The notes under the pieces: generated by a model | Databases searched by the model: none | Told to the model about the DNA's origin: nothing | Seen by the model: the letters and a program-made list of their open reading frames with translations, nothing else | In this document: piece after piece, positions 25,637-64,000 of the stretch | Position numbering within the stretch: position 1 is the first letter of the stretch | How the letters are laid out: each line of letters opens with the position of its first letter | NCBI GenBank assembly: GCA_030433135.1 | Contig: JAUILF010000001.1 | Coordinates: forward strand, 2,891 to 66,890 | DNA from: Bacteroidia bacterium | GTDB taxonomy: Bacteria; Bacteroidota; Bacteroidia; Chitinophagales; Saprospiraceae | Direction: 5' to 3' | DNA: 64,000 nucleotides | Made by a program: the position numbers and the translations under genes

Positions 25637-25796
25637 AGTGTTCGTTTTAGGTTGCTGACAACAGTTTGGCTATGCGCAGTGTCCCGAAGGGCATTGCGTA
25701 TAGGTTTTGTTGAACTAAATCGCCTATCGGCGATGGCTGGCTTTATTGCAGATAATTTCGGAACTCAAGAGTTTTCAACCACAAAAATTCAGAGTT

Positions 25797-26695: not shown

Positions 26696-26698
26696 CAA

Positions 26699-40092: not shown

Positions 40093-40110
40093 TTTTGTGA
40101 ATTTGCGTAG

Positions 40111-41492: not shown

Positions 41493-42175
41493 GATTTCGA
41501 GAGCATTGACTGATACCGACTGATGTATTTTTGAAAATCAGTTTCCGGAAAAATCTTTGGAACCATGTCTAACAATTGACTTAAATATTCTCTTTGCAAT
41601 TTAAACTCAATATCATTCAGGTTGATTTTACAATACAGATATTGCCATGGAATTGCTCCCCTAAAATCCAAAAGTGTAAGAAAATAATCGTGAATATCAA
41701 TTTCCATTTTGAAGCATTCTCCCCCTCTTGATCCATCGTAGAGCCAAATTTCGGGCTCTTGATGATTTTCCATAATCCGAAATGCACTCAAAATTCCATC
41801 CCCAAATTGCGGATGTTCATCGAATGGCTTTAGAGCTTGTATCAATTCTTTTAAGTTCCCTGGCATGGAATCATTGGATAGCATGTGCTCGAGAAAGAAA
41901 ATGTCAATCACATTATTAAGATGAAATTCTCCACTAAGTCCAGGATCAGCACTATTTGGGTATATCCAGGCAAGTCCAAAATTCCCAAGTAGATCAAAGT
42001 ATTTTGAAAAAGCAGGATAGTAATCTATTCCATTTTGTTCTTCTAAGAAAACAAATTCCTCTTTAGCAATGGTTGGTTCTGTATATACCAGATGATTCAT
42101 TTCCCTAAGAATCTCTACCCTTTGTTTTTGCTTTTCATCTCGAATCATTTTGTCAAACGCTAATTGTAAGTCCAT
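41489..42175 (-). CDS. Hypothetical protein, 228 aa; candidate immunity protein for the upstream toxin
   Basis: Complete ORF that starts 10 nt after the stop of the 1764-aa toxin gene. It is acidic and has no signal peptide. The call is positional only. Confidence 0.6.
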   Translation of the reverse strand: MDLQLAFDKMIRDEKQKQRVEILREMNHLVYTEPTIAKEEFVFLEEQNGIDYYPAFSKYFDLLGNFGLAWIYPNSADPGLSGEFHLNNVIDIFFLEHMLSNDSMPGNLKELIQALKPFDEHPQFGDGILSAFRIMENHQEPEIWLYDGSRGGECFKMEIDIHDYFLTLLDFRGAIPWQYLYCKINLNDIEFKLQREYLSQLLDMVPKIFPETDFQKYISRYQSMLSKS

Positions 42176-42185
42176 TTTTCTTTTG

Positions 42186-47480: not shown

Positions 47481-47508
47481 AAATCAATGATTTATAATCA
47501 ACAAATTG

Positions 47509-50985: not shown

Positions 50986-52539
50986 TTACACCCAATTCAC
51001 CCATAATACATCTTCCATCCACGGCAAATGAACAATACTGAGATTCCAGGGTAATTGATCTAGTAGGATATCGATAGTTTTTCGCTCAATTGTAATATTC
51101 CATCGTGATTCGTGGCGCACCAGCTTACCTTCACGTTGTAAAAAGCCTTCTTGCAAACTCGTATTACTCACCTGACCGAGTGCGCCCCAGTTCCGAACAA
51201 CAGCTTGTAACAGATGATCGGCCTCCTCCAAAACTGCGGGTTCCAGGTCTAAAAACCGGTCTACAGGTTGATGGATCGGTAATCCACAAATCACTTTCTG
51301 CAATACCAATTGACTTTCCGGAGGGTGTATTTGTTGTGTTGCCAGGTAATGTAATGTATGCACTGCCGAAACGCGACAGGCATGGGACTTAAATTGCTGA
51401 TTTTCAATATATCCCTGGTATTGCCAAAATCTCAACAAATAAGGATGCAATAAAACAATACCTGCATTGTTGATATGCCATTGATCCTGGCTGGAGTCTT
51501 CCTTCGATTCCGAATCAATACCCTTGTCTGATGACTCGTCCAACTTATGGGGCATTGCATTACTTGTTTGATCTTCATCTTCCGGTAATGGTTGAATCCT
51601 GACCTTTGGCCCTTGCAGATCATTATTCTCGATTTCTCCAGATTCATGGGTTTCAGGGAATTGTGCACCTTTGGCAGAATCAATTATAAGATCCATACCC
51701 TTTTGCCGAACCAATTCAAAGACCTGGCGCACTAGCGGTTGGGTAGACCTTAAACCAGTAGTAAGCAAGATTTTGTGGTCTCCCTGAATTTGATTGATCC
51801 AGGCTATTACAACCTGCATTGCGTGTTCTTGCCAATTCGATTTTTGAATTCTCCCGATTGATGCAAAAACAGCTTCCCAAAATTGAAATTGTAATGTTTG
51901 CAGATAAGCTACAAAGGGGGCTTTAGTGTCAACCTTTTGGCACTCCGTTTCCGTAAAGGTCATCCATTGCTCCAGAAAGTCAGCCAAAACATCGACATCA
52001 TGATTCACAATCTGCCTGACAACATCCCAAAGAAAGGAAGGAGAGAATTGTAAAATGAGTCTCTCCCGAGCTACATGGTTTGTTTGAAGGCAGGTTTTGA
52101 GTTTAAATTTGGCGGTAGGATTTGTGGTCAACCATTCGATCAGGAGCGATTCTTCAAATTCATATTGAAGCGAATTCCTTCCTGTTACAGTGCCATGGGT
52201 AAGAAATTCGATCCAACTTGTAAAGTAGTTTCCCTGGATATTTACCTGTTGAATCGTGTATGAATCCATTGCGGATTGCACCTGTTCTCTCAATTTTTGA
52301 GAAAACATGCGCATGAAGTGTTCCTTTCCGAGTTGATCCAATTGTACAGTTCCCAAATCAATTTCCAGGTGATCAATACAAGTCACGAATTCTTTCTGAC
52401 TTACCTGGTCAAAAATTACCTCCATCTGATGCTTCAGGTCAGCCCAGAATATTTGACTAAATCGGTCCTCAATCTGATTGACATCTTGTCGACTGGCCAG
52501 ATCCAATTGAATCGTACTATTTTCAATGTAATGGATCAT
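50986..52539 (-). CDS. Afp14/Pvc14-like contractile-injection-system tape-measure protein (tentative), 517 aa
   Basis: N-terminal IEDRFSQIFWADLKHQMEVIFDQV..EFVTCIDHLEIDLGTVQLDQL and C-terminal INNAGIVLLHPYLLRFWQ...RVSAVHTLHYLATQQ..PESQLVLQKVICGLP match the pattern I recall for eCIS tape-measure proteins. Its position between baseplate and cargo genes fits. Confidence 0.6.
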   Translation of the reverse strand: MIHYIENSTIQLDLASRQDVNQIEDRFSQIFWADLKHQMEVIFDQVSQKEFVTCIDHLEIDLGTVQLDQLGKEHFMRMFSQKLREQVQSAMDSYTIQQVNIQGNYFTSWIEFLTHGTVTGRNSLQYEFEESLLIEWLTTNPTAKFKLKTCLQTNHVARERLILQFSPSFLWDVVRQIVNHDVDVLADFLEQWMTFTETECQKVDTKAPFVAYLQTLQFQFWEAVFASIGRIQKSNWQEHAMQVVIAWINQIQGDHKILLTTGLRSTQPLVRQVFELVRQKGMDLIIDSAKGAQFPETHESGEIENNDLQGPKVRIQPLPEDEDQTSNAMPHKLDESSDKGIDSESKEDSSQDQWHINNAGIVLLHPYLLRFWQYQGYIENQQFKSHACRVSAVHTLHYLATQQIHPPESQLVLQKVICGLPIHQPVDRFLDLEPAVLEEADHLLQAVVRNWGALGQVSNTSLQEGFLQREGKLVRHESRWNITIERKTIDILLDQLPWNLSIVHLPWMEDVLWVNWV

Positions 52540-55500
52540 TTCTGATTCATTTTTCGCAGTAGGACATAGAACTTTTCAGCAGAACCGGATGGTAGCAATT
52601 TGGCCAACTCAGGATAATTCCAGCTTTGCAACAAATCAGATGTTGTCACACCAGCCTGCTCTATCTGAGCAAAAATTTCCTGGAGCTCGTTCTTATAGAT
52701 GACGCGATCCGGGTTGTCTATGACGAATTGGTCCAAACTCGCACAAATCACATGTGCCAACAACGATTTATATTCCTCTTCTTTTTTAGAATTCTTTCGC
52801 AAACCATATTGTAGGATCATTTGAACCACAGCTTGCAGATTCTGCAAACCAGGATTGGTATCGACATGAAACTTCGCCAATTCAAAAGTCCGGTTTCCAA
52901 TCGACCCGCCCAACAATTCAATCTTTTCTCGGTATCTTGATTTACGTGACCGAAGTGCCCGGTCTTTCTCCATTTCTCGATCGCCAGGCATGTCTGATTG
53001 ATCAACCTTAATCGCAATTTCGGGTGACTTTTTAAGAACTCCTGGTAATTGAATATCTGTGCTGATCGAATGAACCAACTCCATATTTTGTTTCCATTCT
53101 TTAATCGGTAAGGACAGCGACCTGCTATGACCTGGGATCGCCTGAAGTAATGGATTCAGTACATGTTTTCTTTCGGGAGTTGAGTGATAATAGAAATTGT
53201 AGAGCTTGGCCTGATTTATGGTGACAACTGCTTCTCCATTCGCCCTGCAACCTGGATCAGGATGATCTCCGGATTCATAAAATTCACAATCTGTAAGGCC
53301 CGATAACGCATGGATCAAATCACATTTTGCATTGGATTCGGGGCAAAGGGAAGCACCCCGGTGATACCGTAACCATCGCTTGTACTTCCTTTCAAAATCG
53401 CATAATTGTTTGGGATTGATCCAATTGATATCCAGATAAATATGAGCAGGAGCTTCGCGCAGTAATATTTGTTCGTACATCCGGCGCATTTCCTTTTGAT
53501 TCAAAGGTTTCGACCAACAGGGTAGAACCACACTTACCCTAAATGAGTAGGGATCGGCACCGGGCATGTATCTAGATTGAACGGCGTTGGCATTCTCCTG
53601 ACAGGGATCCTGACTGGTTTCATCCTCCACTGGTAACTCACAGTGGCAATCCGGATCATTTTGCATTAGACACTGGCAATCGAGTGGTTCCGTATGGTCA
53701 GGCCGCAGGAGAATATGTTCTACAATATGCATGCCTACCGGATACATGAGTTCCTTCGTTTTATTCAGTTGAGCTTGCATTTGCTTATCGCGCTCATAAC
53801 ACACCGGGTGTATTGCCAGGATCTGATCCGGATCAACAAACGAAAATGAATATGGCCCACAGTCGCGATCACTGCAAGATCGATATCTTGTCCGATCTTT
53901 GCTTGACGATATCAGACGATCTAAATCGGCCCGGGCATCGGCTAGAGTTTCATATAGTCTTGTATTCATCCAGATGATTACACCCCGAACTGGATAATCC
54001 TGCTCTTCCTCATGGCATGGATTACAGGGCCGGTCGTCAATTTTGAGATCGTTGGTCATGCTTTCACAGTATACCTGAAATCCGATACCCTCTTTTTCTT
54101 GCACAAATGGGAAATGCTTTGCGATCTGGACCAATTTTTTGATCGAAAATGGACCATGATGAACCAGGATTGGATTTACCGCTGAAGAATGACCATCAAG
54201 GTGATAATCATGTAATTGAATGCCTTGATCTGTCTCGGCATAAAACCGTTCTTCTCTGGCATAAGCCATCATCTCCAGCAATTTATCCTGACCAATCTGT
54301 TCGGCCTCAGCTGCGGTACCATGATCGCTCTGACCTTCCCAAATTGTCTCTCCCTGGATTGTTAAAATGAAAATATATGAGGCACCAACCTGTTTTGACT
54401 CCACTAAAAAATCAATCACAAGCGGGTTTGAACATTGTTGGTATACCTCACGGATTGCCACATCCCTGCCTTCAGGATGGTCATATTGACGTGGATGTTT
54501 CGCAATGTCATATTGAGAAGTGGTTATATAAAACGAACTGCAGTATTCGGGATTTTGTGTGACCTGCCGGCAAAAAGCATCTTCCCGGCAAGCAGCCTCC
54601 AGAAGTAAATCAAGTCCTGACCATGCCTCATCCTCTGATTGAAATCTTTGATTACTTTCCAGCAGGATATTCCATAGAGCAATCTGATGGCAACAATTCT
54701 CCTGGTCTAGATAAGGTCTCCCGTTCCCCTTGTATTGCAACAATGGCAGGAAATTTTTGAATGATTCCCATGCCTCTGCGATGGTGTTCCAACTTCTCCA
54801 ACTTGTCCAATGTACTTTGCATTCCTCATTTAGCTCGTTGGATATCAGGTGGAAATAATAGCTGAATGTATAGTTTGACTGGCATCCGTTTGATACAGCC
54901 TGGTCTTTATGTAATTTTTTAAGCCGGATCGGATAACTACAAGCCCAGTGAATGATCCGGGCCAATCCAAATTTGGTGCGAGTTTCAGCAGGAATCCAAG
55001 CAATTGGTTCATCCCCGGAAATGCAAATTGTGTTTTTGGTTTTTTCAGGTCGGGCTAAACGAATAACCCCCGGATAGTTCTCTTGTTTTGAGGCCTGCTC
55101 CAGCACTTCCAGATACTGAGCGGTAAAAGCTTCCCGCGCCTGTTCCTGTGAAGCATATCCTTGCCAACTCACAAAGTAAATGTCACCAGTACAAGAGTCT
55201 TTCAGTACAAAGTGAAAAAGTAAATCGATTTTAATGATCGCTTCACTTCCCATGCAAATTTGAGCAAACTGATAGCCATCCTTACTTGCTTTCAAGATTT
55301 CACGTAGCCGGGTGGTGTACGAATGATCCATTTTCTCATAGCATGCGCAAGGATCGTATGCTACAGGTTCGTTTTTATCGAGAACACGGTATACAAACTT
55401 TCCAGCCTTACTCTGCTCAGATTCCTTTACGAACGCTTCAAGATTTTTCGAGGTAATCATGCCCGTCCAATACCTGTATTCATCCGACGCTACATGAATT

Positions 55501-58500
55501 TGTTCCCGGGATATTTTGGGATTCTGCCTGGAGAGATAGATACTTTCTCTTGATTTCTTGTCTCTAATTTCCAGGCGTGGTTGTTTTCCATTCTTTTTGT
55601 GAATGATTTCAAGCCCGGATCGATCTGATAAGTATTTTTTGGCGTGTCGAATAGCCAGGTGTTTTGATGAGAAATCTAAGACGCTTTCGAAAAGTGGGTG
55701 TTCGCCGTCATCGACGTTCGTTAGCCAGATATTGTATTTATATCGATGTTCTTGTTGCCTGATTCGAATGGAGCATGTAAACCGATCCAGAAATGACTTG
55801 ATTTCAGATACATATTTTTTTGCTTGCTCCGTCGTCTCAAAGTTTTTTGGGGTTGTCCCAATACACTGGTTTTTCTTGACTAACTCGACCCGGAAAGATC
55901 CATGATTTTCCACAACTTGAAGCGATTCTTCCTTTGCATAGGTTTTCAGGGCTTCCAGGAAAGCTTTCTCCGCTGAGCGAATCGCTGTCAAATAGCTCGT
56001 TGGTTGCAATAAAGTCTGGCCGTTCTGATTTTCAACTGAATACTGATATTGCTCCTGGAAGGAAAGAGGCATATTGGATCTTTCAAATTGAGAAAGTACT
56101 TGCCTGGCAATCAATTCATTCTCCCCCTTGCTGGCATATGTGTTTGGGTGAGAAGCCACAAACTGCCCTTGTTTGGTTCTGATCAGGAAACTATAATCGA
56201 GATTTGCCTCATCGCCAGTTGTAAAAATTTCTAACTGGCCAGAATTCCCGAGATCAGTGAGAAGACCTAAAATTGCATCCGCAGGACTTTTGAAAAGCCG
56301 GTAGCTGAAGAGAACTTTGCCTTCAGATTCTCCGTCGGGCCAGCAGTATGCAAATGCCTTTTGCGATACGTCAACATGCACATTTTTCTTTAAGCGAATG
56401 GATTGATGCAAGTTTTCCATCCACTTTAAGGCATGTTTCTCATTTTCATAAACCGGTGATTCGGCACAAATTTGACCGGTACCGTCAATCAACCTGATGT
56501 AGTATCCCTTTTCGCATTTCTGTATTTCAAGGTTCATTTGATTACTTCCCTGATCCCGGGCCTCATCTGCTGCGCGCTTCGCTTTTCGCCGGTCTTCATA
56601 CATAAATTTTGATGACAACAAAATCTGACGGTTATCCCGGATATGCCATCTATACCCCTTTGATTTTTCGACGATAAACCGTTTCTGAAACGATGCGATT
56701 TCTTCCCTGATCGCTTCAGCTCCCAGGATATCCTCTTTGCTTCCTTGCATCCATTGAACCTGTGCAAGTTTAATGTCTTGTTTACCCAGAAGATAAGAAT
56801 CGTGAGTGCCACTTGCATCTTGAAGCTCCCATTGCCTCTCTCCCAGAGAAAGAAAATCTGAGATTGTATGAGCCGGGCGATCATATCGTACTTCACTGGT
56901 TATTTCAAAGCGATTGAATCTATCTTTCCAGGTCCAAATGAAAGTAGGGTCCTTTATAATGCAGTATTCCTGAATTTTTTCAAACTGGTAATATTTTCCT
57001 TTTACTACTCCAGATGGTAGAAGTTGGGGTCGTTTGGTTCTGGATTTAAATCGAGATGTGATTTGTTTGTGAAAATCAGACTGGGCGGTATTGGCTTTCT
57101 CTTCACTGATAAACTTAGTTGGATAACGAGCCAATACCTGTTTCTTTTGATCAATTAATTCCAGGTGATACTGGTACTTACTCACATAGATATCTTTTTC
57201 GGATATTTCCTGTTGGAATCTACTTTTCCAAATTGTCAAATCCTGATCCCGGCTTTGTGCTGTGTCATATCGGATACAGGACGAAAATGAAACATGGTCC
57301 ATTTGAATGCGAAATCCATAACTGTCTTTCGACTCATCATAAAATAACGAATACCCTTTGTCTCTCTCTGAACCGAGAAGCAATCTGTCTAACGCCAGAA
57401 CTGCTTCGTCGCGACTATCGAATGTCACATCACTGCGCAGCAAGCTATTTCCCTGTTGATCTGGAATCATGATGCGAAATTCGTCCTGGTACTCGTGAAT
57501 CTCGAAGTTGCACAAATCAGTCTTTACCAGGTTGGTACCCGATATAGCAGCAATACGCCGTTCAAATCCACTCATGTTTTCGGTATTCCAAACCGGTTTG
57601 CAGATATTAAATCCTTTGCCCCTGTCACGGCTAATCTGGGGGTAGTGGCTGAGGTAGTTTGCTTTATTTTCAGCCAATTGCCTTTGGTCGGTTTGAAGTG
57701 CAAAATGCAGCAAGGCATAATCCGCAAATTTTTCCGAGAACCTGGCCAATAAGTGGTCAAGAAACTGATTACGCCTGCGAACATATTGAGACCGGTCTTC
57801 AAGCATTTGCTGCAGATAATCCAGATAATATCCTGCAGGTTCCACAATTTCAAAAGTGAATTTTGGCGGATGGGAATCAGGAAAATTCGAGGTTCGGTAA
57901 GCCTTTATTTGCGTACCTATAAATGAAAGGGATTCAGCTGCTGCCAGAGCTTCATTTTTTGTCGAATATGTGGTTTTACTGTAAATCAGAAAATCTGGAA
58001 TCCGCGATTTCATCACGAAAAAAAATCCACACTTTGCCTGACAGATTTGGGATTCAATCTGATCCTGAATGAATTCACGTTGTAACTGTTTCAGGACGGC
58101 ATTTCGCTCCCCGGTGGAATCAAAGTAATATTCGGTGTAATTTAAATCGATATCTGAGCGATCTTGCAAATAATCGAGTTCCAGGGATGTATTTCGATTT
58201 GCTTCGATCAGAATGGCAACTACTTTTCCGGTTTGCCAAACTAGCTCAGGGCCATCTGATTGGTCCTTTTTAAAAAAACGGATGATCTTCTCCGCTTGAG
58301 GAAGGTCTTCTAATGGTTGTACGAAATAGGTGTGTTGGTCTTCCATGGCACGGTCCCTATCCGGCCGGTATGAAAACAAATGACGAATATGCCCGAGCTG
58401 GCTGAGGTATGAACTTAGAAGAGCATCAAAAAATACCAGGTAGCCTTGTAATTGGAGAGCCTGTGATTTTCTCGCGGTGCTGGCACTATCAGGTAGACCT

Positions 58501-59867
58501 CCTTCTCTGATTCCATAAACACGCGGTAGATCATTTTGAATGGAATAGTGTTGACCCAAATTTTCCCGTAATTGGCCGTATTGAATCGGAATATCGAGAT
58601 CTATGGGGTTTGTATACCTGGAGCGGCGGCTGGAAAGGCTTAATTGCAGTAATCTCATTTCAACCTTGTCCCTGTCGACCTGTTGCGGGATACCGCTTTT
58701 CGTGAAAATAATCGTGGAATGCGCAAAACATAGTTTGGGAATATGGTCTTTAAGCAATGGCAGTATCCAATCAGCACAATATCCCTGATTATCACAAAAG
58801 TTTTGGTGGTTAAGACTATTATAAAGCTCCTGACCATTTTGATCATATGCCGACAACACCAGATCTGAAACCCGTATGATCCCTTCACCAAGTTGCATCA
58901 GGACCCCGTAGAGGTCCGATAAATGAATTTCCTTTCTCCTGGGAATATGAGAGAGTTGTTCTGTATCGATAAATCCATAGCTGTCCATTGTATAGGGTCT
59001 ACCTGAATAGGCAGATTCAATCGAGTGATCTTTCAGATATTCTGATAAGGTATAGTAATTTACCTGTGGCGAAAGGAAGAGGTCTACTGCTTCTATGATT
59101 TGAAAAAATAATTCCACCGGATCGGCTGTTTCGGCGATTTCTATTTCTGTGCAAATACCAATTTTCTGTTCACACAAGACCGAAATTGATGTGAAATCTT
59201 CGGCCAGATTTCGATGTTTAAAAAGAGTGGATTTGACTTGTTTGACAATTGCTTCTTCCTTCCCCTTAGCAGCAGTATCTTGTGAATTCAGGCAAAATCG
59301 ATTTTCCCAATCGATTTCAATACTCACTTTATACAGTCCGTTTAGCGTTATTTCATGATCGCATTCTGAATGTTGTATACATGACAGGGAGGAATGAGCC
59401 GGGTGCCCATGTGTATGAAAAATCACATCATCATCGGAATCCGATTGAGGCGGACTCGGGCAGCATGCGTATAAGGTATGGTCCCGGTCGATTTCAAGCC
59501 AGGCATTACGAACAGATGGAACATCCATGAGCAATTTTCGATAATCAAGGATGGTTACCGGATTGCAGGTTAAGATCTGAGCAGGTGTAAAGAAATTATC
59601 TTCTTCCTCGTCCTCGGGTTTAGCCAGGATTTGTTCGATAGGCAATTTTGTTCTGTAACCCAGATCTAAAAGGGCGTAGCAAATCAGTTCCAGTAAGGTA
59701 ACACCCGGGTCGTGTACATTATGGTCAGTCCAGATCTTACCCGCCAGTTTTCCAATATGTTCCAGGCCGGTTCGACGTAGCTCCTCAAAATCAAAATGGG
59801 CATGATCAAAAGTAGGATCCTTTTGTAAAATGACTTTGCTATCTCCAAACTTGGTTGTCTCTGACAT
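52536..59867 (-). CDS. Afp12/Pvc12-like baseplate protein expanded to 2443 aa by an internal array of YegP/DUF1508-like modules
   Basis: The N-terminus IWTDHNVHDPGVTLLELICYALLDLGYRTKLPIEQIL is the conserved start of eCIS/phage baseplate wedge proteins downstream of the J-like protein. There is a 4-nt overlap with the next gene. Residues about 575-2000 hold at least 15 repeats of a beta-hairpin + helix module (see finding). Confidence 0.65.
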   Translation of the reverse strand: MSETTKFGDSKVILQKDPTFDHAHFDFEELRRTGLEHIGKLAGKIWTDHNVHDPGVTLLELICYALLDLGYRTKLPIEQILAKPEDEEEDNFFTPAQILTCNPVTILDYRKLLMDVPSVRNAWLEIDRDHTLYACCPSPPQSDSDDDVIFHTHGHPAHSSLSCIQHSECDHEITLNGLYKVSIEIDWENRFCLNSQDTAAKGKEEAIVKQVKSTLFKHRNLAEDFTSISVLCEQKIGICTEIEIAETADPVELFFQIIEAVDLFLSPQVNYYTLSEYLKDHSIESAYSGRPYTMDSYGFIDTEQLSHIPRRKEIHLSDLYGVLMQLGEGIIRVSDLVLSAYDQNGQELYNSLNHQNFCDNQGYCADWILPLLKDHIPKLCFAHSTIIFTKSGIPQQVDRDKVEMRLLQLSLSSRRSRYTNPIDLDIPIQYGQLRENLGQHYSIQNDLPRVYGIREGGLPDSASTARKSQALQLQGYLVFFDALLSSYLSQLGHIRHLFSYRPDRDRAMEDQHTYFVQPLEDLPQAEKIIRFFKKDQSDGPELVWQTGKVVAILIEANRNTSLELDYLQDRSDIDLNYTEYYFDSTGERNAVLKQLQREFIQDQIESQICQAKCGFFFVMKSRIPDFLIYSKTTYSTKNEALAAAESLSFIGTQIKAYRTSNFPDSHPPKFTFEIVEPAGYYLDYLQQMLEDRSQYVRRRNQFLDHLLARFSEKFADYALLHFALQTDQRQLAENKANYLSHYPQISRDRGKGFNICKPVWNTENMSGFERRIAAISGTNLVKTDLCNFEIHEYQDEFRIMIPDQQGNSLLRSDVTFDSRDEAVLALDRLLLGSERDKGYSLFYDESKDSYGFRIQMDHVSFSSCIRYDTAQSRDQDLTIWKSRFQQEISEKDIYVSKYQYHLELIDQKKQVLARYPTKFISEEKANTAQSDFHKQITSRFKSRTKRPQLLPSGVVKGKYYQFEKIQEYCIIKDPTFIWTWKDRFNRFEITSEVRYDRPAHTISDFLSLGERQWELQDASGTHDSYLLGKQDIKLAQVQWMQGSKEDILGAEAIREEIASFQKRFIVEKSKGYRWHIRDNRQILLSSKFMYEDRRKAKRAADEARDQGSNQMNLEIQKCEKGYYIRLIDGTGQICAESPVYENEKHALKWMENLHQSIRLKKNVHVDVSQKAFAYCWPDGESEGKVLFSYRLFKSPADAILGLLTDLGNSGQLEIFTTGDEANLDYSFLIRTKQGQFVASHPNTYASKGENELIARQVLSQFERSNMPLSFQEQYQYSVENQNGQTLLQPTSYLTAIRSAEKAFLEALKTYAKEESLQVVENHGSFRVELVKKNQCIGTTPKNFETTEQAKKYVSEIKSFLDRFTCSIRIRQQEHRYKYNIWLTNVDDGEHPLFESVLDFSSKHLAIRHAKKYLSDRSGLEIIHKKNGKQPRLEIRDKKSRESIYLSRQNPKISREQIHVASDEYRYWTGMITSKNLEAFVKESEQSKAGKFVYRVLDKNEPVAYDPCACYEKMDHSYTTRLREILKASKDGYQFAQICMGSEAIIKIDLLFHFVLKDSCTGDIYFVSWQGYASQEQAREAFTAQYLEVLEQASKQENYPGVIRLARPEKTKNTICISGDEPIAWIPAETRTKFGLARIIHWACSYPIRLKKLHKDQAVSNGCQSNYTFSYYFHLISNELNEECKVHWTSWRSWNTIAEAWESFKNFLPLLQYKGNGRPYLDQENCCHQIALWNILLESNQRFQSEDEAWSGLDLLLEAACREDAFCRQVTQNPEYCSSFYITTSQYDIAKHPRQYDHPEGRDVAIREVYQQCSNPLVIDFLVESKQVGASYIFILTIQGETIWEGQSDHGTAAEAEQIGQDKLLEMMAYAREERFYAETDQGIQLHDYHLDGHSSAVNPILVHHGPFSIKKLVQIAKHFPFVQEKEGIGFQVYCESMTNDLKIDDRPCNPCHEEEQDYPVRGVIIWMNTRLYETLADARADLDRLISSSKDRTRYRSCSDRDCGPYSFSFVDPDQILAIHPVCYERDKQMQAQLNKTKELMYPVGMHIVEHILLRPDHTEPLDCQCLMQNDPDCHCELPVEDETSQDPCQENANAVQSRYMPGADPYSFRVSVVLPCWSKPLNQKEMRRMYEQILLREAPAHIYLDINWINPKQLCDFERKYKRWLRYHRGASLCPESNAKCDLIHALSGLTDCEFYESGDHPDPGCRANGEAVVTINQAKLYNFYYHSTPERKHVLNPLLQAIPGHSRSLSLPIKEWKQNMELVHSISTDIQLPGVLKKSPEIAIKVDQSDMPGDREMEKDRALRSRKSRYREKIELLGGSIGNRTFELAKFHVDTNPGLQNLQAVVQMILQYGLRKNSKKEEEYKSLLAHVICASLDQFVIDNPDRVIYKNELQEIFAQIEQAGVTTSDLLQSWNYPELAKLLPSGSAEKFYVLLRKMNQK

Positions 59868-59881
59868 AATGGTTCTTTTGA

Positions 59882-62800
59882 TTACTGGCTACATCGCAAT
59901 TGTCTTTTCAGGCTGTATTCATTTTCACAATGCCCATTCCGGGATTCACAGTACGAATCGCAATGCTGGATATGATCGATAAGAATGTCTCCAGCGGTTA
60001 AGATGGAGCGTATTGTTTTGGGGTCAATCCGCGACCGGCTTTGCACGATTTGTCCCGGTTCTAAACAGACTTTTTCATCCTGATGAGTCATCTCAAGTTC
60101 ACAAATGAAATCGACGTAGTACAATTTTTCAATGTAGGTAGCCAGATCCGATTGATGAATGCTTTTACCCAATTCGAGCCGGGGTGAGTCCTGGCCATTT
60201 AACCAGGGAGACAGGAATTGCCGGATATCAGATTGCAGCTGTTGTTTGAAGAAATTCAGGTTCGTGATGTTTTTCTGAAATTGAATGGTTATTTCCACGT
60301 CGATTTTCTCGTACCGCGGGTTGACTACAGTGAGGTGAATAAATGGAGAAATCCGGGATGTTATCCATTCCTTGATTTCCTGAAGCAGACTCAATGGTAA
60401 TTTGGGCTCGAGAAGCTGACCGGATTTCAGCTTTTCCAGGTCGGGGATAACAACCACCATTACGAAGCCGGGTGCAACGCCAAGATCCTTGCTGAATCCC
60501 TTCGCTGACAGTGCTAACGAATGAGGCACGGCCAATACCTTTTTTACCTCTTCAAATCGATCAAGGATCAGGTATTCATAATCCCAGGATTGTATACCCC
60601 GGTCCTTATGACGTAGATGTTCACTGATCCGTTGGAAGAGGTTAATAGACTGTTCTTCCAATTTGCCGTGAAAAGAGGGATAGGGTTGTTGAATCTTTTT
60701 AATTTTTGCATCCGCAACTGCTAATTTGGAGATCTTTCCACCTTCCAGAAGCATGGATAATCGACTTTGAGGCCGGTTTGCCTGATAAGTTACCTTTGCC
60801 GCCTGCGTATGAATGTCGATTGTCTCACATATGGCTGCAACATGCTCCCGGGCCTGGATTCTGATCCAGCTTTTCTGATCGGGCATGATCGTAAAACCCT
60901 GATCAGACATGTCCTCCGGTACTGCGACCTTCACAATGCCCGACCGGGTAAGGCCCATTGTCGCATCCTCAACAATCTCAAAGCCCGGTCGAAGTTCAAA
61001 CCAATTATTTTGCTTTAAATAGTACCAATTCAATTGAGCCTTCGGGCATTCAGAATCAGCCGTAGCTTCGGCCAATTGAAATAAAAGATGTAAACCTGCC
61101 CCGGGTGTGAGCGATTCAAATCCGAGATATAATGAACCTTCATTATCGATATAGTTGAGCAAAGTTGGACTAGCTTCCAGGGACTCCTCCCGATGTGAGT
61201 TATCAAATGGATAAAGGTGAAAAAATTGAATATCACTGATTGATGCTTTAGCAGTGTAATCTAGAGACAGATCTTTGATAATCGGCGTCCATGGTTCATT
61301 GGGGATAAGTACCTCTTTATCGCCAAATAAACTTTTGAATACATCTATTGGGTTGACTTTAAATGCATCTATGATTTTACTTTTTAAATCGTCCGTAATG
61401 ACATCAAAATCAAATAGATCAAGTACTCCTTCACTAGTAGCTGTTCCATTGAAAAACTCTTCGGCAGCTTTTTTTAAATCTCCAATATCAGCGCCTGCAT
61501 CAAAAGTAAAATCGGTAAAATCTATGCTCGAAACCAGATCACTAAAATCAATATCGGTAAAAAATGACTTTATTTCTTCTAGTAGAATATTGGCTTTGGC
61601 CAGTACATCTTTTAATATTTGCTCAGCTTCGTCATTATCTGGATTATTCAATAAGGCATTCTCTATAACTTCCTTGATATGAACAATGAGATTCCCAAAA
61701 TGCTGGAATACGTCTTCAACCCCCTGTTCAATAAGTCCACCAATGTTTCCCAAAAAAATGCCTAGATCGAATACATGAGGACTTCCGCTCTCCAAATAAA
61801 TGGCTCCGTCAATGAGGTCGGGATAGCGCCCAAATGCCATCATTTGACGTCCCAGAACAAAAGCATAGTCCTTATGCAGAAAATCTTGATTGATTAGCGT
61901 GATTTTGAGAAAACCATTTCTTGTATTCACATCAAATTGGAGAAGAGGTATATTGATGGAATCACAAAACCGTCCGGGCATCTGATCGAGCATGTATACC
62001 GTTTCAAACTGAGAATCACAGCAACCCATAAGAGAGTTATCATCTGCAAATAACTGGTGATCCAATTTTTGATTGATCCATTGCCCGTTCACGATTTCGC
62101 GAATGTTTACCACGAAACCGCCTTTGTCAAGACCATCTTTTTTATATGCAGCATAATATTTGCCGAAATCCGCGGGTAAGTCTTTCCAGTTTATCTTTAC
62201 CCACACATTTGTCCAGTCCTTACAAAAAACCTCATTTGATCCCAAATAAAAGTTCGGACCAACCAGGTTTGGAGGATCTGGTGCTTCCATTGAAGTGACC
62301 ACAGTAAAGTCGATGACGTCAGGTCGTGTACCAAACGGATAAATGTCGCTATTCACATCTTGCAAACTCTGCTCATTTTGAACCACAACATTCTTAAAAT
62401 CACAAACTTTGACGTCGATGCATACATCCGCAATTTTGAGGTTTCTGAAATAGTGATACAATGAGATGTGCAGTTCTTCCTCGTCCCGGCACCGTTCTAT
62501 CGAACAGCATGGGTCATACTGATGGCTTGTCACGGGAATCCGGATATTTGGATCCAAAATCAACTGAACAGCTGGCATTTCCGTATCCAATGACTCCTGG
62601 AGTGCCTCTGAATTAAAAAAGGTGACCGGGTCAAATTCACGGGGTAAATTGATCGTTATGGTTAGCTCATAATCAGTTCCATCAACGCATGCACATTTGT
62701 CTTGTGGCGCTCCAAAGCTGATCGTTACATCATCTGGATTTACCGGTAACCATCCCTGTTCACCGGAAAAAGAAATGGTAAATGCCTTTGTTTTAGTAAA

Positions 62801-64000
62801 GACTTTTTCGGCAATAGCCAGGTCATCCGAATTTGATATCCCATTTTCCAGCTCATCCTCAGCTACGGCGCGATTCCGCGAAGGGGTCAGGAAATCCAGG
62901 CCGTCTTGCGATATATCCAACTCAATTGCCTGTTGCATTTCCTGATCACCAATGAAAAAATAGGTCCGGTCGATGGCGTCAGTGAAATTCTGATCGTCCA
63001 GCTTCGGTTCACCACAGTCCTGTATATCAAATTTGTTGAGGCAGAATGTGAGTGTTACTGTTCTTTCACCTTCCTGCAACAAAAGAACCGGGGATGCCAG
63101 GACTACTCCTATCCGTGCCGCAGGATGGAAATTGGGAATGGAGCTAACCTCAGGATTTTTCAGTTTTTCTTCCGGGATATATTTACTCTCCTTAGATCCC
63201 AGAGTATACCAACTTGCTGATTGTCCCTTGTAACCAATACCATCTGCTGTATTGGCCTTTGGGGCCATGTACACTCCCTCGATAAAATCGCATAAATCAG
63301 AATTTTCAGAACAATCAGTTGTGTTGCCATTCTTGTTTCCTTCAATCCGGTTGAGGTACATTGATCTGAAGTCCGTGATTTTGGCATGATCGATAACCAG
63401 ATCCTCATTAAGCTGGTAGAGAATATCCTCGTCATCGAGATCTTTACCATTTTTGAGTTTGCCTTTGTCTTTTTGGAGTAAATAGTTCTTCAGGTTCTTC
63501 TGAATTTCAAACAAAACATGTACTTCATCCGGCCTTTCTTTTCGTGCCTTGATGTTAAGAATTTGCGTATAAAAAAACTCAAGATGGTTCGTACTTAGGG
63601 CGTTCAAATCGCCTTGAAATTGTTTATACAACTTCAACACTGCGATCATCAGGGCGATATGTGGCGGATGTTTTTCCTGATCAATTTCGGCCAGTGGTAT
63701 CAGGCTCTCCTCGAAATAATGAATTGACTTTTTTGCAAGCTCTCTTTGTGCATTCAGGAATGTTTTTGCCTCCTCAGACAATTTCTGAGTGATGTGCATC
63801 AGCCGGTTGTTTTGCCCTGGGATGTCGGCAATTTTTGTGCTGGTTCCTGGTGGATCTGATTGATGATCCAATATCCAGAGGGACCTGTACTTGATCTTTG
63901 TCAAGTCAAAAGATTGCAAACAGTACCAGGATGACACATCATTGAAGAATTGGATAAATCGATTAAACGATGGGGCCAGATTGGCAATAATACCTTGTTC
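59882..64000 (-). CDS. Afp11-like baseplate J/gp6-type protein, 5' end beyond the window (>1372 aa)
   Basis: The track start (63937) is a GTG. The frame stays open to position 64000 (EQGIIANLAPSFNRFIQFFNDVSSWYC...), so the gene probably starts outside the window. PHIALMIAVLKLYKQFQGDLNALSTNHLEFFYTQILNIKARKERPDEVHVLFE matches the conserved N-terminal region of eCIS baseplate J-like proteins. The gap to the Afp12-like gene is 14 nt. Confidence 0.6.
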   Translation of the reverse strand, partial: EQGIIANLAPSFNRFIQFFNDVSSWYCLQSFDLTKIKYRSLWILDHQSDPPGTSTKIADIPGQNNRLMHITQKLSEEAKTFLNAQRELAKKSIHYFEESLIPLAEIDQEKHPPHIALMIAVLKLYKQFQGDLNALSTNHLEFFYTQILNIKARKERPDEVHVLFEIQKNLKNYLLQKDKGKLKNGKDLDDEDILYQLNEDLVIDHAKITDFRSMYLNRIEGNKNGNTTDCSENSDLCDFIEGVYMAPKANTADGIGYKGQSASWYTLGSKESKYIPEEKLKNPEVSSIPNFHPAARIGVVLASPVLLLQEGERTVTLTFCLNKFDIQDCGEPKLDDQNFTDAIDRTYFFIGDQEMQQAIELDISQDGLDFLTPSRNRAVAEDELENGISNSDDLAIAEKVFTKTKAFTISFSGEQGWLPVNPDDVTISFGAPQDKCACVDGTDYELTITINLPREFDPVTFFNSEALQESLDTEMPAVQLILDPNIRIPVTSHQYDPCCSIERCRDEEELHISLYHYFRNLKIADVCIDVKVCDFKNVVVQNEQSLQDVNSDIYPFGTRPDVIDFTVVTSMEAPDPPNLVGPNFYLGSNEVFCKDWTNVWVKINWKDLPADFGKYYAAYKKDGLDKGGFVVNIREIVNGQWINQKLDHQLFADDNSLMGCCDSQFETVYMLDQMPGRFCDSINIPLLQFDVNTRNGFLKITLINQDFLHKDYAFVLGRQMMAFGRYPDLIDGAIYLESGSPHVFDLGIFLGNIGGLIEQGVEDVFQHFGNLIVHIKEVIENALLNNPDNDEAEQILKDVLAKANILLEEIKSFFTDIDFSDLVSSIDFTDFTFDAGADIGDLKKAAEEFFNGTATSEGVLDLFDFDVITDDLKSKIIDAFKVNPIDVFKSLFGDKEVLIPNEPWTPIIKDLSLDYTAKASISDIQFFHLYPFDNSHREESLEASPTLLNYIDNEGSLYLGFESLTPGAGLHLLFQLAEATADSECPKAQLNWYYLKQNNWFELRPGFEIVEDATMGLTRSGIVKVAVPEDMSDQGFTIMPDQKSWIRIQAREHVAAICETIDIHTQAAKVTYQANRPQSRLSMLLEGGKISKLAVADAKIKKIQQPYPSFHGKLEEQSINLFQRISEHLRHKDRGIQSWDYEYLILDRFEEVKKVLAVPHSLALSAKGFSKDLGVAPGFVMVVVIPDLEKLKSGQLLEPKLPLSLLQEIKEWITSRISPFIHLTVVNPRYEKIDVEITIQFQKNITNLNFFKQQLQSDIRQFLSPWLNGQDSPRLELGKSIHQSDLATYIEKLYYVDFICELEMTHQDEKVCLEPGQIVQSRSRIDPKTIRSILTAGDILIDHIQHCDSYCESRNGHCENEYSLKRQLRCSQ

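What the first reader, a model, noticed from the sequence alone, without database searches (positions are those of the whole stretch)
53870..58100. About 15-20 tandem YegP/DUF1508-like modules inserted in the Afp12-like baseplate protein
Between a conserved baseplate N-terminal region (about residues 1-560) and a Cys-rich C-terminal region (about 2000-2443), the 2443-aa protein repeats a roughly 40-residue core every 50-100 residues. The core is two short strands with alternating aromatic/hydrophobic residues around a G/N turn, followed by [YF].[ST]..[ED]A......[LIF].

Examples (residue numbers):
- 613 CGFFFVMKSRIPDFLIYSKTTYSTKNEALAAAESLSFI
- 795 DEFRIMIPDQQGNSLLRSDVTFDSRDEAVLALDRLL
- 897 KYQYHLELIDQKKQVLARYPTKFISEEKANTAQSDFHKQI
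- 1070 KGYRWHIRDNRQILLSSKFMYEDRRKAKRAADEAR
- 1120 KGYYIRLIDGTGQICAESPVYENEKHALKWMENLHQSI
- 1224 DYSFLIRTKQGQFVASHPNTYASKGENELIARQVLSQF
- 1323 GSFRVELVKKNQCIGTTPKNFETTEQAKKYVSEIKSFL
- 1375 RYKYNIWLTNVDDGEHPLFESVLDFSSKHLAIRHAKKYL
- 1549 LLFHFVLKDSCTGDIYFVSWQGYASQEQAREAFTAQYLEVL
- 1666 YTFSYYFHLISNE..VHWTSWRSWNTIAEAWESFKNFLPLL
- 1829 ASYIFILTIQGETIWEGQSDHGTAAEAEQIGQDKLLEMMAYA
- 1960 RGVIIWMNTRLYETLADARADLDRLISS

This is the grammar of the small YegP/DUF1508 domain (y.F.L.a.NGe.i..S..Y.sk..a..gI.sv). No separate tail-fibre (Afp13-like) gene lies between this gene and the tape-measure gene. The bead-string may therefore act as the fibre or spacer, or as a target-binding array.
Basis: seen in the sequence. 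Interest (0 to 1): 0.7.

Follow-up and report, generated by a model that had tools for sequence, protein, structure and literature searches.

The report
Giant baseplate protein with ~23 YegP-like modules
A 2443-residue baseplate protein of a phage-tail-like injection machine carries about 23 tandem copies of a small YegP/DUF1508-type domain; this is a greatly enlarged version of a side arm already seen in a cyanobacterial machine, it is common in Bacteroidota, and what the arm touches is still unknown.

Summary
The ORF at window 52536-59867 (-) is a Cis12/Afp12 baseplate protein, with E 8.6e-125 to Anabaena All3315 and 6.6e-83 to Algoriphagus Alg12. Its middle consists of about 22-23 diverged beta-beta-beta-alpha units of ~50 aa, plus two variant modules.

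- **Repeat signal.** Pairwise similarity between units is at noise level. At profile level the repeat is clear: 48% of unit-unit comparisons reach P<1e-3, against 0 of 364 unit-control comparisons.
- **YegP/DUF1508 assignment, four independent lines.**
  - A unit profile hits E. coli YegP at E 8.8e-8.
  - An AlphaFold2 model (pLDDT 88) matches YegP and SO3888 by Foldseek at probability 1.0.
  - The same profile retrieves canonical Pfam DUF1508 arrays.
  - Several homologues carry PF07411.
- **Position.** The main array occupies the same insertion point as the "Cis12 extension" of the thylakoid-anchored CIS, which forms the wide connector to the membrane. That extension has ~10 such units, and Alg12 has ~2.
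- **Fibre gene.** None lies next to the gene, and this holds in about 70 of 75 related loci.
- **Distribution.** The family occurs in 425 species genomes, nearly all Bacteroidota, with 7-26 units.

The function is inferred, not shown: six peripheral baseplate arms that contact a surface. The finding is a new variant of a known kind.

The parts
52536..59867 (-). Cis12/Afp12-like baseplate wedge protein, 2443 aa
   Evidence: phmmer against PDB: All3315 (7b5h_AD) E 8.6e-125, Algo12 (7aeb_A) 6.6e-83, Pvc12 2.2e-24, Afp12 6.8e-18. 603 homologues at E<1e-5.
58278..59867 (-). N-terminal conserved core (residues 1-530), the gp6-like part plus the start of the gp7-like part
   Evidence: Residues 17-529 align to All3315 11-503 and Alg12 18-473. 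This is the most conserved part of the family.
57831..58277 (-). Insertion site A (residues 531-679): unit U02 (609-660) and a weak possible unit U01 (about 545-603)
   Evidence: All3315 runs from residue 503 almost directly to 506 across this point, so this insertion is absent there. U02 has 15 hhalign partners at P<1e-3; U01 has 5.
57498..57830 (-). Conserved helical core segment (residues 680-790; RRNQFLDHLLARFSEKF...SRDRGKGFN...SGFERRI); not a repeat
   Evidence: Aligns to All3315 506-605 and Alg12 493-590. Contains many invariant columns.
53721..57497 (-). Insertion site B (residues 791-2049, 147 kDa): main array of about 21 DUF1508/YegP-like units (U03-U26) plus two variant modules
   Evidence: hhalign network; unit HMM; AF2 beta-beta-beta-alpha pattern. 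Unit profile against PDB: All3315 E 2.9e-36 with about 10 stretches, YegP 2k8e E 8.8e-8. Foldseek: 7b5h_AD E 1.6e-10, 2k8e and 2k49 at probability 1.0.
55602..56672 (-). Most regular stretch: seven units in strict tandem (U08-U14, residues 1066-1422, spacing 49-53 aa). Includes the only Pfam DUF1508 hit (residues 1068-1106).
   Evidence: Pfam PF07411 E 0.0012, 19.1 bits. AF2 pLDDT 87.7, pTM 0.63.
54912..55064 (-). Variant module V18 (residues 1602-1652)
   Evidence: Matches only V23 by hhalign (P 9e-8) and no canonical unit. AF2 gives short strands, one helix, then a strand.
54117..54242 (-). Variant module V23 (residues 1876-1917)
   Evidence: hhalign partner of V18 only. AF2 gives beta-beta-beta plus a short helix.
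53988..54053 (-). Cys/acidic loop (residues 1939-1960) inserted in the hairpin of unit U24/25 (1921-1997)
   Evidence: AF2 pLDDT <50 at model residues 516-535, flanked by a hairpin and by a strand plus helix. Family consensus reads GYxFxLY...PCxC...WxSxxxYxTxxEA.
53268..53720 (-). Conserved Cys-rich C-terminal baseplate domain (residues 2050-2200)
   Evidence: Aligns to All3315 1163-1294, Alg12 734-830 and Pvc12 817-883. 10 Cys in 151 aa. Invariant C2066, C2076, C2182.
52539..53267 (-). C-terminal tail (residues 2201-2443): variable linker followed by a conserved helical end domain
   Evidence: Identity 0.08-0.10 with gaps at 2201-2300, then conserved columns R2308, Y2312, D2379, W2416. No family match.
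59882..63937 (-). Cis11/Afp11-like baseplate protein (1351 aa), immediately upstream
   Evidence: PDB: All3317 E 2.1e-127, Alg11 7.5e-80, Pvc11, Afp11.
50986..52539 (-). Tape-measure protein (Cis14). Its start overlaps the Cis12 stop by 4 bp, so no fibre gene lies between them.
   Evidence: PF19268 CIS_TMP E 3.4e-101. ORF coordinates.

Best explanation
**Shown**
- The ORF is the Cis12/Afp12 wedge protein of a contractile injection system.
- At the insertion point where Algoriphagus Alg12 has about 2 small domains and Anabaena Cis12 about 10, this protein has about 21. One or two more sit at a second site.
- Each domain is a ~50-aa beta-beta-beta-alpha module of the DUF1508/YegP (UPF0339) type.
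- The duplications are ancient. There is no similarity at DNA level and none pairwise between units. Each unit has its own orthologue in related proteins.

**Inferred**
- The baseplate holds six Cis11-Cis12 wedges. The chain leaves the core after residue ~790 and returns to it at the conserved C-terminal domain (~2050). The 147-kDa array should therefore form six large arms on the lateral, gp7-like face of the baseplate, an enlarged version of the 'wide connector' of the thylakoid-anchored CIS.
- The arms are most likely fixed-architecture structural limbs that set the distance to a surface and make contact with it. That surface could be the target cell or the producer's own membrane. They would pass the contact signal to the wedge, as fibres do elsewhere.
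- They are less likely to be hypervariable receptor binders.
For: - **Homology and shared insertion point:**
- **Repeat is real at profile level:**
- **DUF1508/YegP identity:**
  - Unit profile against PDB gives YegP E 8.8e-8, UPF0339 6q2z E 1e-3, and All3315 E 2.9e-36 with about 10 stretches.
  - AF2 pLDDT 87.7. Foldseek then gives 7b5h_AD E 1.6e-10 and 2k8e/2k49 at probability 1.0.
  - The unit profile retrieves proteins that Pfam scores as DUF1508 at E 1e-64 to 9e-74.
  - PF07411 is precomputed on 7 of the 120 listed homologues.
- **Peripheral location and membrane contact of the homologous extension:** PMC8894136. The gp7-like part of Alg12 lies on the lateral surface and is described there as a hotspot for re-engineering: PMC8894135.
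- **Defined rather than floppy arrangement:**
  - pTM 0.63-0.66 for multi-unit models.
  - Column occupancy of about 0.9 across 34 homologues.
  - Constant length (2340-2401 aa), and array conservation of 0.4-0.7 against 0.42-0.85 for the core, in 14 Aquimarina species.
- **No adjacent fibre gene:** in the window and in about 70 of 75 related loci.
Against: - No experiment or structure exists for this family. I could not inspect model coordinates, so the rod, hairpin or compact shape of the array is not established.
- Pfam's own threshold for DUF1508 is not reached by this protein (19.1 against 22 bits). Only 4 of 115 single units hit DUF1508 at E<0.1.
- Foldseek on the second model is weak (7b5h_AD probability 0.66, YegP 0.16).
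- The protein has no transmembrane segment and no strong cationic amphipathic helix inside the array, so direct membrane insertion is not indicated.
- The operon upstream of Cis11 is outside the window.
Confidence: 0.6

Rival explanations
1. Fibre substitute. The six DUF1508 arms are the receptor-binding organ of a fibre-less eCIS, and individual units or the distal part bind target-surface ligands.
For: - No Afp13- or Alg19-type gene lies at the canonical position in the window or in about 70 of 75 related loci.
- No fibre-like Pfam or NCBIfam match is found in any operon gene visible in the window.
- Unit number differs between clades, from 7 to 26.
- Some blocks are variable: Aquimarina positions 1701-1800 and query 951-1050 and 1801-1950.
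Against: - Four related loci have a Peptidase_S74 fibre-like gene as well as a giant Cis12.
- Within Aquimarina the array is constant in length and almost as conserved as the core.
- No ligand-binding function is known for DUF1508.
- The upstream part of the operon and the rest of the genome were not seen.
Confidence: 0.25
2. Self-anchoring. The system works like the thylakoid-anchored CIS or a T6SS subtype iv. The six arms hold the baseplate against the producer's own inner membrane or an envelope complex.
For: - The homologous Anabaena extension forms the wide connector to the thylakoid membrane (PMC8894136).
- In Aureispira (Saprospiraceae), the T6SSiv baseplate contacts the inner membrane through six unassigned anchoring densities plus the cage (bioRxiv 10.1101/2024.01.29.577165).
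- The closest relatives of the window protein are from Saprospiraceae and other Bacteroidota.
Against: - There is no transmembrane or clear membrane-binding segment.
- In Anabaena, sfGFP-Cis12 alone was cytoplasmic in E. coli, and anchoring depended on the Cis13 transmembrane helix.
- The locus encodes eCIS_core (DUF4157) toxins. That domain is toxin-associated in CIS loci (PMC12210884 abstract), but this does not decide the mode of action.
- I did not check whether Aureispira Cis12 carries the array.
Confidence: 0.2
3. Docking or lattice scaffold. The array is a platform that binds other proteins, such as a separately encoded fibre or the large eCIS_core effectors. Alternatively it mediates lateral contacts between neighbouring particles, as proposed for the gp7-like part in MAC arrays and T6SSiv.
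For: - Xu et al. propose that the gp7-like part mediates superstructures and fibre binding (PMC8894135).
- Alg12 domain VI loops and the Alg12 C-terminal loop bind the Alg19 fibre (bioRxiv 10.1101/2025.10.08.681156).
- Single DUF1508 domains form homodimers and tandem ones form pseudo-dimers (bioRxiv 10.1101/2024.11.21.623966), a property suited to self-association.
- The array coexists with a fibre-like gene in four loci.
Against: - No partner has been identified.
- Tandem DUF1508-Ubl proteins were monomeric in solution.
- There is no co-variation evidence.
Confidence: 0.15
4. No real repeat. The pattern is a by-eye selection of amphipathic strand-helix stretches in a large alpha/beta protein.
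For: - Pairwise self-comparison is at the level of shuffled sequence.
- There is no DNA repeat.
- The whole-protein Pfam hit is below threshold.
Against: - Profile-profile contrast of 48% against 0%.
- Leave-query-out HMM.
- AF2 periodic fold.
- Matches to YegP and All3315.
- Retrieval of canonical DUF1508 arrays.
Confidence: 0.01

Closest known systems
Cis12 (All3315) of the thylakoid-anchored CIS of Anabaena sp. PCC 7120 (PDB 7B5H; Weiss et al. 2022, PMC8894136)
   Same: - Homologous N core (E 8.6e-125), helical segment and C-terminal domain.
- Insertion at the same point, made of the same unit: the unit profile finds about 10 stretches at 634-1166, E 2.9e-36.
- The AF2 model superposes on the solved chain at E 1.6e-10.
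- This extension forms the peripheral 'wide connector'.
   Different: - About 10 units and 1335 aa there, against about 21 at this site here plus a second insertion site, 2443 aa in all.
- Anabaena has a Cis13 fibre with a transmembrane helix and a Cis19 crown. No counterpart was seen in the window.
- A text search of that paper for 'repeat' found no description of the extension as a repeat array. No held paper contains both 'DUF1508' and 'contractile'.
Alg12 of AlgoCIS (Algoriphagus machipongonensis; PDB 7AEB, 9WSZ; PMC8894135 and bioRxiv 10.1101/2025.10.08.681156)
   Same: - Same family (E 6.6e-83).
- Gp6-like plus gp7-like organisation.
- One clear unit at 608-641 and a weak one at 697-726, at the same site.
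- The lateral gp7-like part is flagged there as an evolutionary hotspot.
   Different: - 933 aa with about 2 units.
- It binds a separate trimeric fibre, Alg19.
- By its locus-tag number (ALPR1_12705, inside cluster ALPR1_12680-12765) I infer that alg19 lies inside the cluster, probably next to alg12. I did not check this.
- In the window no gene separates Cis12 from the tape-measure gene.
YegP / UPF0339 / Pfam DUF1508 (PDB 2K8E, 2K49, 6Q2Z)
   Same: - Same ~48-aa beta-beta-beta-alpha module by profile (E 8.8e-8) and by fold (probability 1.0, TM 0.58-0.62 on the target).
- The unit consensus y.F.l.d..Ge.l..S..Y.s...A....i matches the DUF1508 grammar.
   Different: - YegP is a ~110-aa cytoplasmic stress-induced protein with two units. 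Here 20 or more units are embedded in a structural baseplate protein.
- The units are too diverged for Pfam's threshold in this protein.
Free-standing long DUF1508 arrays, for example DUF7139 + DUF1508 x 11-13 proteins of about 940-975 aa
   Same: They are retrieved by the Cis12 unit profile at E 1e-55 to 1e-63, and Pfam scores them as DUF1508 at E down to 9e-74. Long arrays of this domain therefore exist elsewhere. 'Extended arrays' are also mentioned in bioRxiv 10.1101/2024.11.21.623966.
   Different: - A different host protein with no baseplate domains.
- Function unknown. Genomic context was not examined.
Phage T4 gp7 and Afp12/Pvc12 (PDB 6RAO, 6J0N)
   Same: - Same wedge role, with a homologous N core and C-terminal domain.
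- The peripheral part is the attachment region for fibres (knowledge of the T4, AFP and PVC baseplates, as summarised).
   Different: - Afp12 and Pvc12 are about 950-965 aa, and the unit profile finds no DUF1508 stretch in them at E<=1.
- AFP and PVC have Afp13/Pvc13 fibres.

Membership tests
Cis12/Afp12 baseplate wedge protein | N-terminal gp6-like core homologous to solved Cis12, Alg12, Pvc12 and Afp12 | tested here: met
   phmmer against PDB: E 8.6e-125, 6.6e-83, 2.2e-24 and 6.8e-18.
Cis12/Afp12 baseplate wedge protein | Conserved C-terminal domain (GMH.VEHILLRP ... DPYSF ... EAPAH) | tested here: met
   Aligns to All3315 1163-1294, Alg12 734-830, SalCis12 and Pvc12.
Cis12/Afp12 baseplate wedge protein | Gene sits between Cis11 and the tape-measure gene in a CIS operon | tested here: met
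   Cis11 homologue upstream and CIS_TMP downstream. Same order, with gp25, PAAR, VgrG and tube genes, in homologous loci.
Cis12/Afp12 baseplate wedge protein | Forms a heterodimeric wedge with Cis11, six per baseplate | not testable with these tools
   Needs a particle structure or a multimer prediction with coordinates.
DUF1508 / YegP (UPF0339) | Reaches the Pfam PF07411 gathering score | tested here: not met
   - Whole protein scores 19.1 bits against a cut-off of 22.
- 4 of 115 single units hit at E<0.1, best 2.6e-5.
- 7 of the 120 listed homologues do carry PF07411.
DUF1508 / YegP (UPF0339) | Significant profile-level sequence relationship to bona fide members | tested here: met
   - Unit profile hits YegP 2k8e at E 8.8e-8 (two stretches) and 6q2z at E 1e-3.
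- It also retrieves proteins with PF07411 at E 1e-64 to 9e-74.
DUF1508 / YegP (UPF0339) | Same fold: ~50-aa module of three strands and one helix | tested here: met
   AF2 pLDDT 87.7 with seven beta-beta-beta-alpha units. Foldseek gives 2k8e and 2k49 at probability 1.0, TMt 0.58 and 0.62.
DUF1508 / YegP (UPF0339) | Units pair into symmetric (pseudo-)dimers | not testable with these tools
   Model coordinates and PAE are not available. pTM 0.63-0.66 hints at fixed inter-unit packing.
tCIS-type Cis12 extension ('wide connector') | Insertion at the same point of the Cis12 chain, built of the same unit | tested here: met
   Flanking segments align on both sides. About 10 unit matches at All3315 634-1166. 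Foldseek E 1.6e-10 over 337 columns.
tCIS-type Cis12 extension ('wide connector') | Projects from the baseplate periphery and contacts a membrane | not testable with these tools
   Known only for Anabaena. No transmembrane segment here.
tCIS-type Cis12 extension ('wide connector') | Co-occurs with a Cis13 transmembrane fibre and a Cis19 crown | tested here: inconclusive
   No such gene lies next to Cis12, and no other fibre-like family was found in the operon genes seen. The upstream operon is outside the window.
Tail fibre (Afp13 / Alg19 / phage fibre) | Recognisable fibre domains: shoulder, coiled coil or beta-helix, Ig-like, or S74 chaperone | tested here: not met
   No such Pfam or NCBIfam match in the protein. 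The fold is a DUF1508 array.

The most novel reading that the evidence does not exclude
A large clade of Bacteroidota contractile injection systems has dispensed with separate tail fibres. Instead it uses six arms built into the Cis12 wedge protein as its target-sensing and trigger organ. Each arm is a chain of 7-26 YegP/DUF1508 modules. This would give the long-orphan DUF1508 domain its first defined role, as a modular building block for surface-contact limbs.
Probability: 0.25. Interest if true: 0.75.

Novelty: new variant of a known kind. Interest (0 to 1): 0.55.

Why it matters
- **Engineering.** Target recognition is the part of eCIS biology that engineering depends on, and so far it is understood only for systems with separate fibres.
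- **Scale.** This family is found in 425 species-representative genomes, almost all Bacteroidota. It puts 90-150 kDa of extra protein on each of the six wedges, usually with no fibre gene adjacent.
- **A testable proposal.** Recognising the extra mass as an array of DUF1508/YegP modules gives a domain-level model for the poorly resolved periphery of the Anabaena tCIS baseplate and of Alg12. It links three solved systems as one expansion series of 2, 10 and more than 20 units. It also suggests what the six unassigned anchoring densities of Saprospiraceae T6SSiv could be.
- **A context for an orphan domain.** DUF1508 has had solved structures since 2008 but has no known function. This gives it a structural setting.

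Tried and rejected
**Led nowhere**
- Pairwise self-comparison of 50-aa windows with phmmer gave no signal above shuffles. Both were replaced by per-unit homologue profiles and a leave-query-out HMM.
- The first all-against-all hhalign run timed out.
- The exact-sequence look-up of the protein's contig found no record, so the region upstream of the window could not be read.
- NCBIfam and Pfam found nothing for the 228-aa and 203-aa operon ORFs.
- Foldseek on the 636-residue second model was weak.
- Tandem Repeats Finder found no DNA repeat.
- The hydropathy and hydrophobic-moment scan found no membrane segment.
- A literature search found no paper containing both 'DUF1508' and 'contractile'.

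**Considered and rejected**
- Recent duplication or a slippage array. The units are ancient and each has its own orthologue in related proteins.
- A cyanobacterial origin for the window, which I considered because pentapeptide-repeat and TPR-cyclase genes lie nearby. All 80 listed relatives but one are Bacteroidota (the exception is a Thiothrix-labelled MAG), and none is cyanobacterial.
- A strict 'array replaces fibre' rule. Four loci have both.

Full report
**What is at the coordinates.** The finding lies inside one ORF, window 52536-59867 on the minus strand, 2443 aa. The stated range 53870-58100 corresponds to residues ~590-1999.

**The surrounding genes form a contractile-injection-system operon on the minus strand.**
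- Upstream is a 1351-aa Cis11/Afp11 homologue (All3317 E 2.1e-127, Alg11 7.5e-80).
- Next comes the 2443-aa protein.
- A tape-measure protein follows (PF19268, E 3.4e-101). Its start overlaps the stop of the 2443-aa ORF by 4 bp.
- Two large eCIS_core (DUF4157) proteins follow, one with an AHH nuclease domain and one with an Endonuclease_NS_2 domain.
- Then come two small ORFs with no family match, with a ParA-like ATPase between them, then a third eCIS_core protein and an AAA+ ATPase.

The 2443-aa protein is a Cis12/Afp12 homologue: All3315 E 8.6e-125, Algo12 6.6e-83, Pvc12 2.2e-24, Afp12 6.8e-18.

**Is the repeat real?**
- On the single sequence it is not demonstrable. phmmer of 50-aa windows against the protein gives scores no better than shuffled sequence. 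Tandem Repeats Finder sees nothing at DNA level. Pfam on the whole protein gives a single sub-threshold DUF1508 hit at residues 1068-1106 (E 0.0012, 19.1 bits against a cut-off of 22).
- The protein has 603 homologues at E<1e-5, of 1800-2900 aa. In a MAFFT alignment of 34 of them the middle region aligns column for column, with occupancy ~0.9 and identity 8-36%.
- I defined 26 candidate units of ~47 aa, cut the corresponding sub-alignments, and compared them with each other and with 14 control windows from the N- and C-terminal regions using hhalign.
  - 156 of 325 unit-unit pairs (48%) reach P<1e-3, and 125 reach P<1e-4.
  - None of 364 unit-control pairs reaches P<1e-3.
  - The only control-control pair that does is a pair of overlapping windows.
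  - Of the 26 candidates, 23 have at least five partners at P<1e-3, with best-partner probabilities of 77-98%.
  - Two candidates, 1602-1652 and 1876-1917, match only each other (P 9e-8). I call them variant modules.
- A unit HMM built from five homologues without any query sequence finds 17 units in the query above the maximum of 50 shuffles. With the query included it finds 20.

**Structure.**
- AlphaFold2 on residues 1060-1430 with a 24-sequence alignment gives pLDDT 87.7 and pTM 0.63. It shows seven successive beta-beta-beta-alpha modules of ~50 aa.
- Residues 1425-2060 give pLDDT 78 and pTM 0.66, with nine more canonical modules and the two variants.
- The model shows that my candidates U24 and U25 are one module. 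It is split by a disordered Cys/acidic loop at residues 1939-1960.
- The total is therefore about 21 canonical units at 791-2049 and one or two more at 545-660.
- In the most regular run (1066-1422) the spacing is 49-53 aa.

**Are the units YegP/DUF1508? Four independent lines say yes.**
1. A profile of 115 unit sequences searched against all PDB sequences finds E. coli YegP (2k8e) at E 8.8e-8 with both of its repeats. It also finds the UPF0339 protein 6q2z at E 1e-3.
2. YegP 2k8e and SO3888 2k49 follow at probability 1.0 (TM on the target 0.58 and 0.62). Nothing else exceeds probability 0.3.
3. The same profile, searched exhaustively against 1.84 billion representative proteins, retrieves 1025 proteins at E<=1e-3. 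Besides the giant Cis12 proteins (10-26 stretches, up to 2981 aa), these include a class of ~900-1100-aa proteins. Pfam scores these as canonical DUF1508 arrays (PF07411 E 1e-64 to 9e-74), and many carry an N-terminal DUF7139.
4. Seven of the 120 listed homologues carry a precomputed PF07411 hit, and two of them are named 'YegP (UPF0339 family)' by JGI.

Against formal membership, this protein does not reach Pfam's gathering score. Only 4 of 115 isolated units hit DUF1508 at E<0.1. I conclude that the units are a divergent branch of DUF1508.

**Architecture relative to solved systems.**
- Residues 17-529 align with All3315 11-503 and Alg12 18-473.
- Residues 680-790, a conserved helical segment, align with All3315 506-605 and Alg12 493-590. 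The first unit after it (U03) aligns with the first unit of All3315 and with Alg12 ~608-641.
- Residues 2045-2195 align with All3315 1163-1294, Alg12 734-830 and Pvc12 817-883.
- The main array (791-2049) therefore occupies exactly the site of the 'Cis12 extension' of the thylakoid-anchored CIS (aa 610-1100 in Weiss et al.). The unit profile finds about ten units there, at 634-1166, with E 2.9e-36.
- According to that paper, the extension forms the 'wide connector' between baseplate and thylakoid membrane and could be modelled only partly. A text search of it for 'repeat' found no description of a repeat array. No held paper contains both 'DUF1508' and 'contractile'.
- Alg12 has about two units at this site. 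[quoted passage not shown]
- The segment 531-679, with unit U02 and a weak U01, is a second insertion that All3315 lacks.

**Distribution and variation.**
- A scan of one genome per species found 425 genomes encoding relatives. The 80 best are almost all Bacteroidota: Saprospiraceae, Chitinophagaceae, Aquimarina and other Flavobacteriaceae, Cyclobacteriaceae, Pontibacter, Spirosoma and Pedobacter. Best-segment identity to the window protein is 26-43%. The source organism is therefore not in that set and is probably a Bacteroidota MAG.
- Unit number tracks protein length (r 0.61):

| Protein length | Units found |
|---|---|
| ~1790 aa | 7-8 |
| ~2150-2200 aa | mostly 10-13 |
| 2400-2950 aa | mostly 14-22 (range 11-22) |

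- The maximum seen is 26 stretches, in a 2981-aa protein.
- Within one genus the array is stable. Fourteen Aquimarina proteins are 2340-2401 aa long. Their arrays are conserved at 0.4-0.7 mean column identity, against 0.42-0.85 for the core. Only one gap-rich variable block (positions ~1701-1800) and a variable C-terminal linker stand out.

**The fibre question.**
- In the window no gene separates Cis11, Cis12 and the tape-measure gene.
- None of the downstream operon proteins has a fibre-like family match.
- Two homologous loci show the order tube, plug, tube-initiator, VgrG, PAAR, gp25, Cis11, Cis12, TMP, effectors.
- In about 70 of 75 loci the distance from the Cis12 C-terminal domain to the TMP match leaves no room for another gene. 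In a dozen of these the distance is 1.3-2.3 kb only because the TMP match is partial.
- Four loci (L037, L051, L053, L069; Saprospiraceae, Lewinellaceae and an unclassified Bacteroidota MAG) have a ~600-aa protein between Cis11 and Cis12. Three of them (L051, L053, L069) also have another large gene between Cis12 and TMP and still carry a giant Cis12; L037 is a short contig on which Cis12 is cut off. Pfam scanning of the L053 copy found a Peptidase_S74 domain. Array and fibre-like gene are therefore not mutually exclusive.
- The part of the operon upstream of Cis11 is outside the window, and the contig look-up found no record.

**How it most likely works.**
- Shown: the identity of the host protein, the identity and number of the modules, their insertion point, and their conservation pattern.
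- Inferred: the chain leaves the wedge core and returns to it, and the wedge is present six times. The 147-kDa array should therefore form six large lateral arms, as the shorter homologous extension does in Anabaena.
- The one-to-one orthology of units, the constant length within a genus and pTM values of 0.63-0.66 argue for a fixed architecture. They argue against both a floppy bead string and a hypervariable binder.
- The protein has no transmembrane segment.
- I therefore favour structural limbs that set the distance to a surface, contact it, and feed into the wedge.
- Open sub-hypotheses are:
  - contact with the target, replacing fibres;
  - contact with the producer's own membrane, as in tCIS or the six anchoring densities of the Aureispira T6SSiv;
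  - a docking or lattice role.
- DUF1508 itself has no known function. Single domains form homodimers and tandem ones form pseudo-dimers, and a Whirly/PC4-like topology has been suggested.

**Novelty and verdict.**
- A Cis12 extension was already known and partly solved.
- New here are three points: its identification as a DUF1508/YegP array, the series 2, ~10 and more than 20 units across Alg12, All3315 and this family, and the size and spread of the giant form in Bacteroidota.
- I file this as a new variant of a known kind, with moderate interest.
The domain assignment and the gene-context statement are supported. The functional reading remains open.

Noticed in passing
window 54912-55064 and 54117-54242 (residues 1602-1652 and 1876-1917): Two modules inside the array match each other (hhalign P 9e-8) but none of the canonical units. 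They share a motif of the form P.A.IP ... L...A..[YF]P[IF]. They may be a second repeat type or capping/linker elements.
   Followed up: partly
window 52539-53267 (residues 2201-2443): After the conserved C-terminal baseplate domain comes a variable linker, which is long and Lys/Pro-rich in several homologues. A conserved ~130-aa helical end domain follows (R2308, Y2312, D2379 and W2416 are invariant). It has no family match. In Alg12 the C-terminal loop is the fibre-binding site.
   Followed up: partly
window 53268-53720 (residues 2050-2200): The C-terminal domain is Cys-rich (10 of 151 residues) with invariant cysteines C2066, C2076 and C2182, and further CxC / PCxC motifs occur in the last units. 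This is unusual for a protein assembled in the cytoplasm and may indicate a metal site.
   Followed up: no
window 38806-50820 (-): Three eCIS_core (DUF4157) proteins lie downstream of the tape-measure gene: 1103 aa with SH3 and AHH nuclease domains, 1764 aa with Endonuclease_NS_2, and 428 aa. A ParA/MinD-like ATPase (40719-41492) and two ORFs with no family match (228 and 203 aa) lie between them. The ATPase is an odd passenger in a CIS operon.
   Followed up: partly
window 4862-29041: A dense cluster of conflict-system genes: DUF4062-STAND NTPase, LRR-EAD11-Roc-COR-TIR (1342 aa), an EAD11 protein, caspase-TIR, a ThsB-like TIR and another TIR protein. It is interrupted by a tyrosine recombinase and an IS91-family transposase (25746-27679).
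   Followed up: no
window 59882-63937 (-): The Cis11 homologue is 1351 aa, and only residues ~873-1337 match solved Cis11/Alg11/Afp11. The N-terminal ~870 aa have no Pfam match. In tCIS and AlgoCIS the extra Cis11 domains form the spike cage.
   Followed up: no
L053 8103-9917 and 17530-22680; also L037, L051, L069: A small clade (Saprospiraceae, Lewinellaceae and an unclassified Bacteroidota MAG) has a ~600-aa protein between Cis11 and Cis12; in the L053 copy a Peptidase_S74 domain was found. L051, L053 and L069 also have a large protein of unknown family (1716 aa in L053) between Cis12 and the tape-measure gene, and keep a giant Cis12.
   Followed up: partly
proteins P0157, P0163, P0165: A separate family of ~940-975-aa proteins combines an N-terminal DUF7139 with 11-13 canonical DUF1508 units. 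Others combine DUF1508 arrays with DUF11 or a weak, sub-threshold SPOR match. Long DUF1508 arrays therefore occur outside injection systems.
   Followed up: partly
L036 (contig CAXYXW010000012.1): One relative sits in a MAG labelled Thiothrix (Gammaproteobacteria) among otherwise Bacteroidota carriers. This could be horizontal transfer or a binning error.
   Followed up: no
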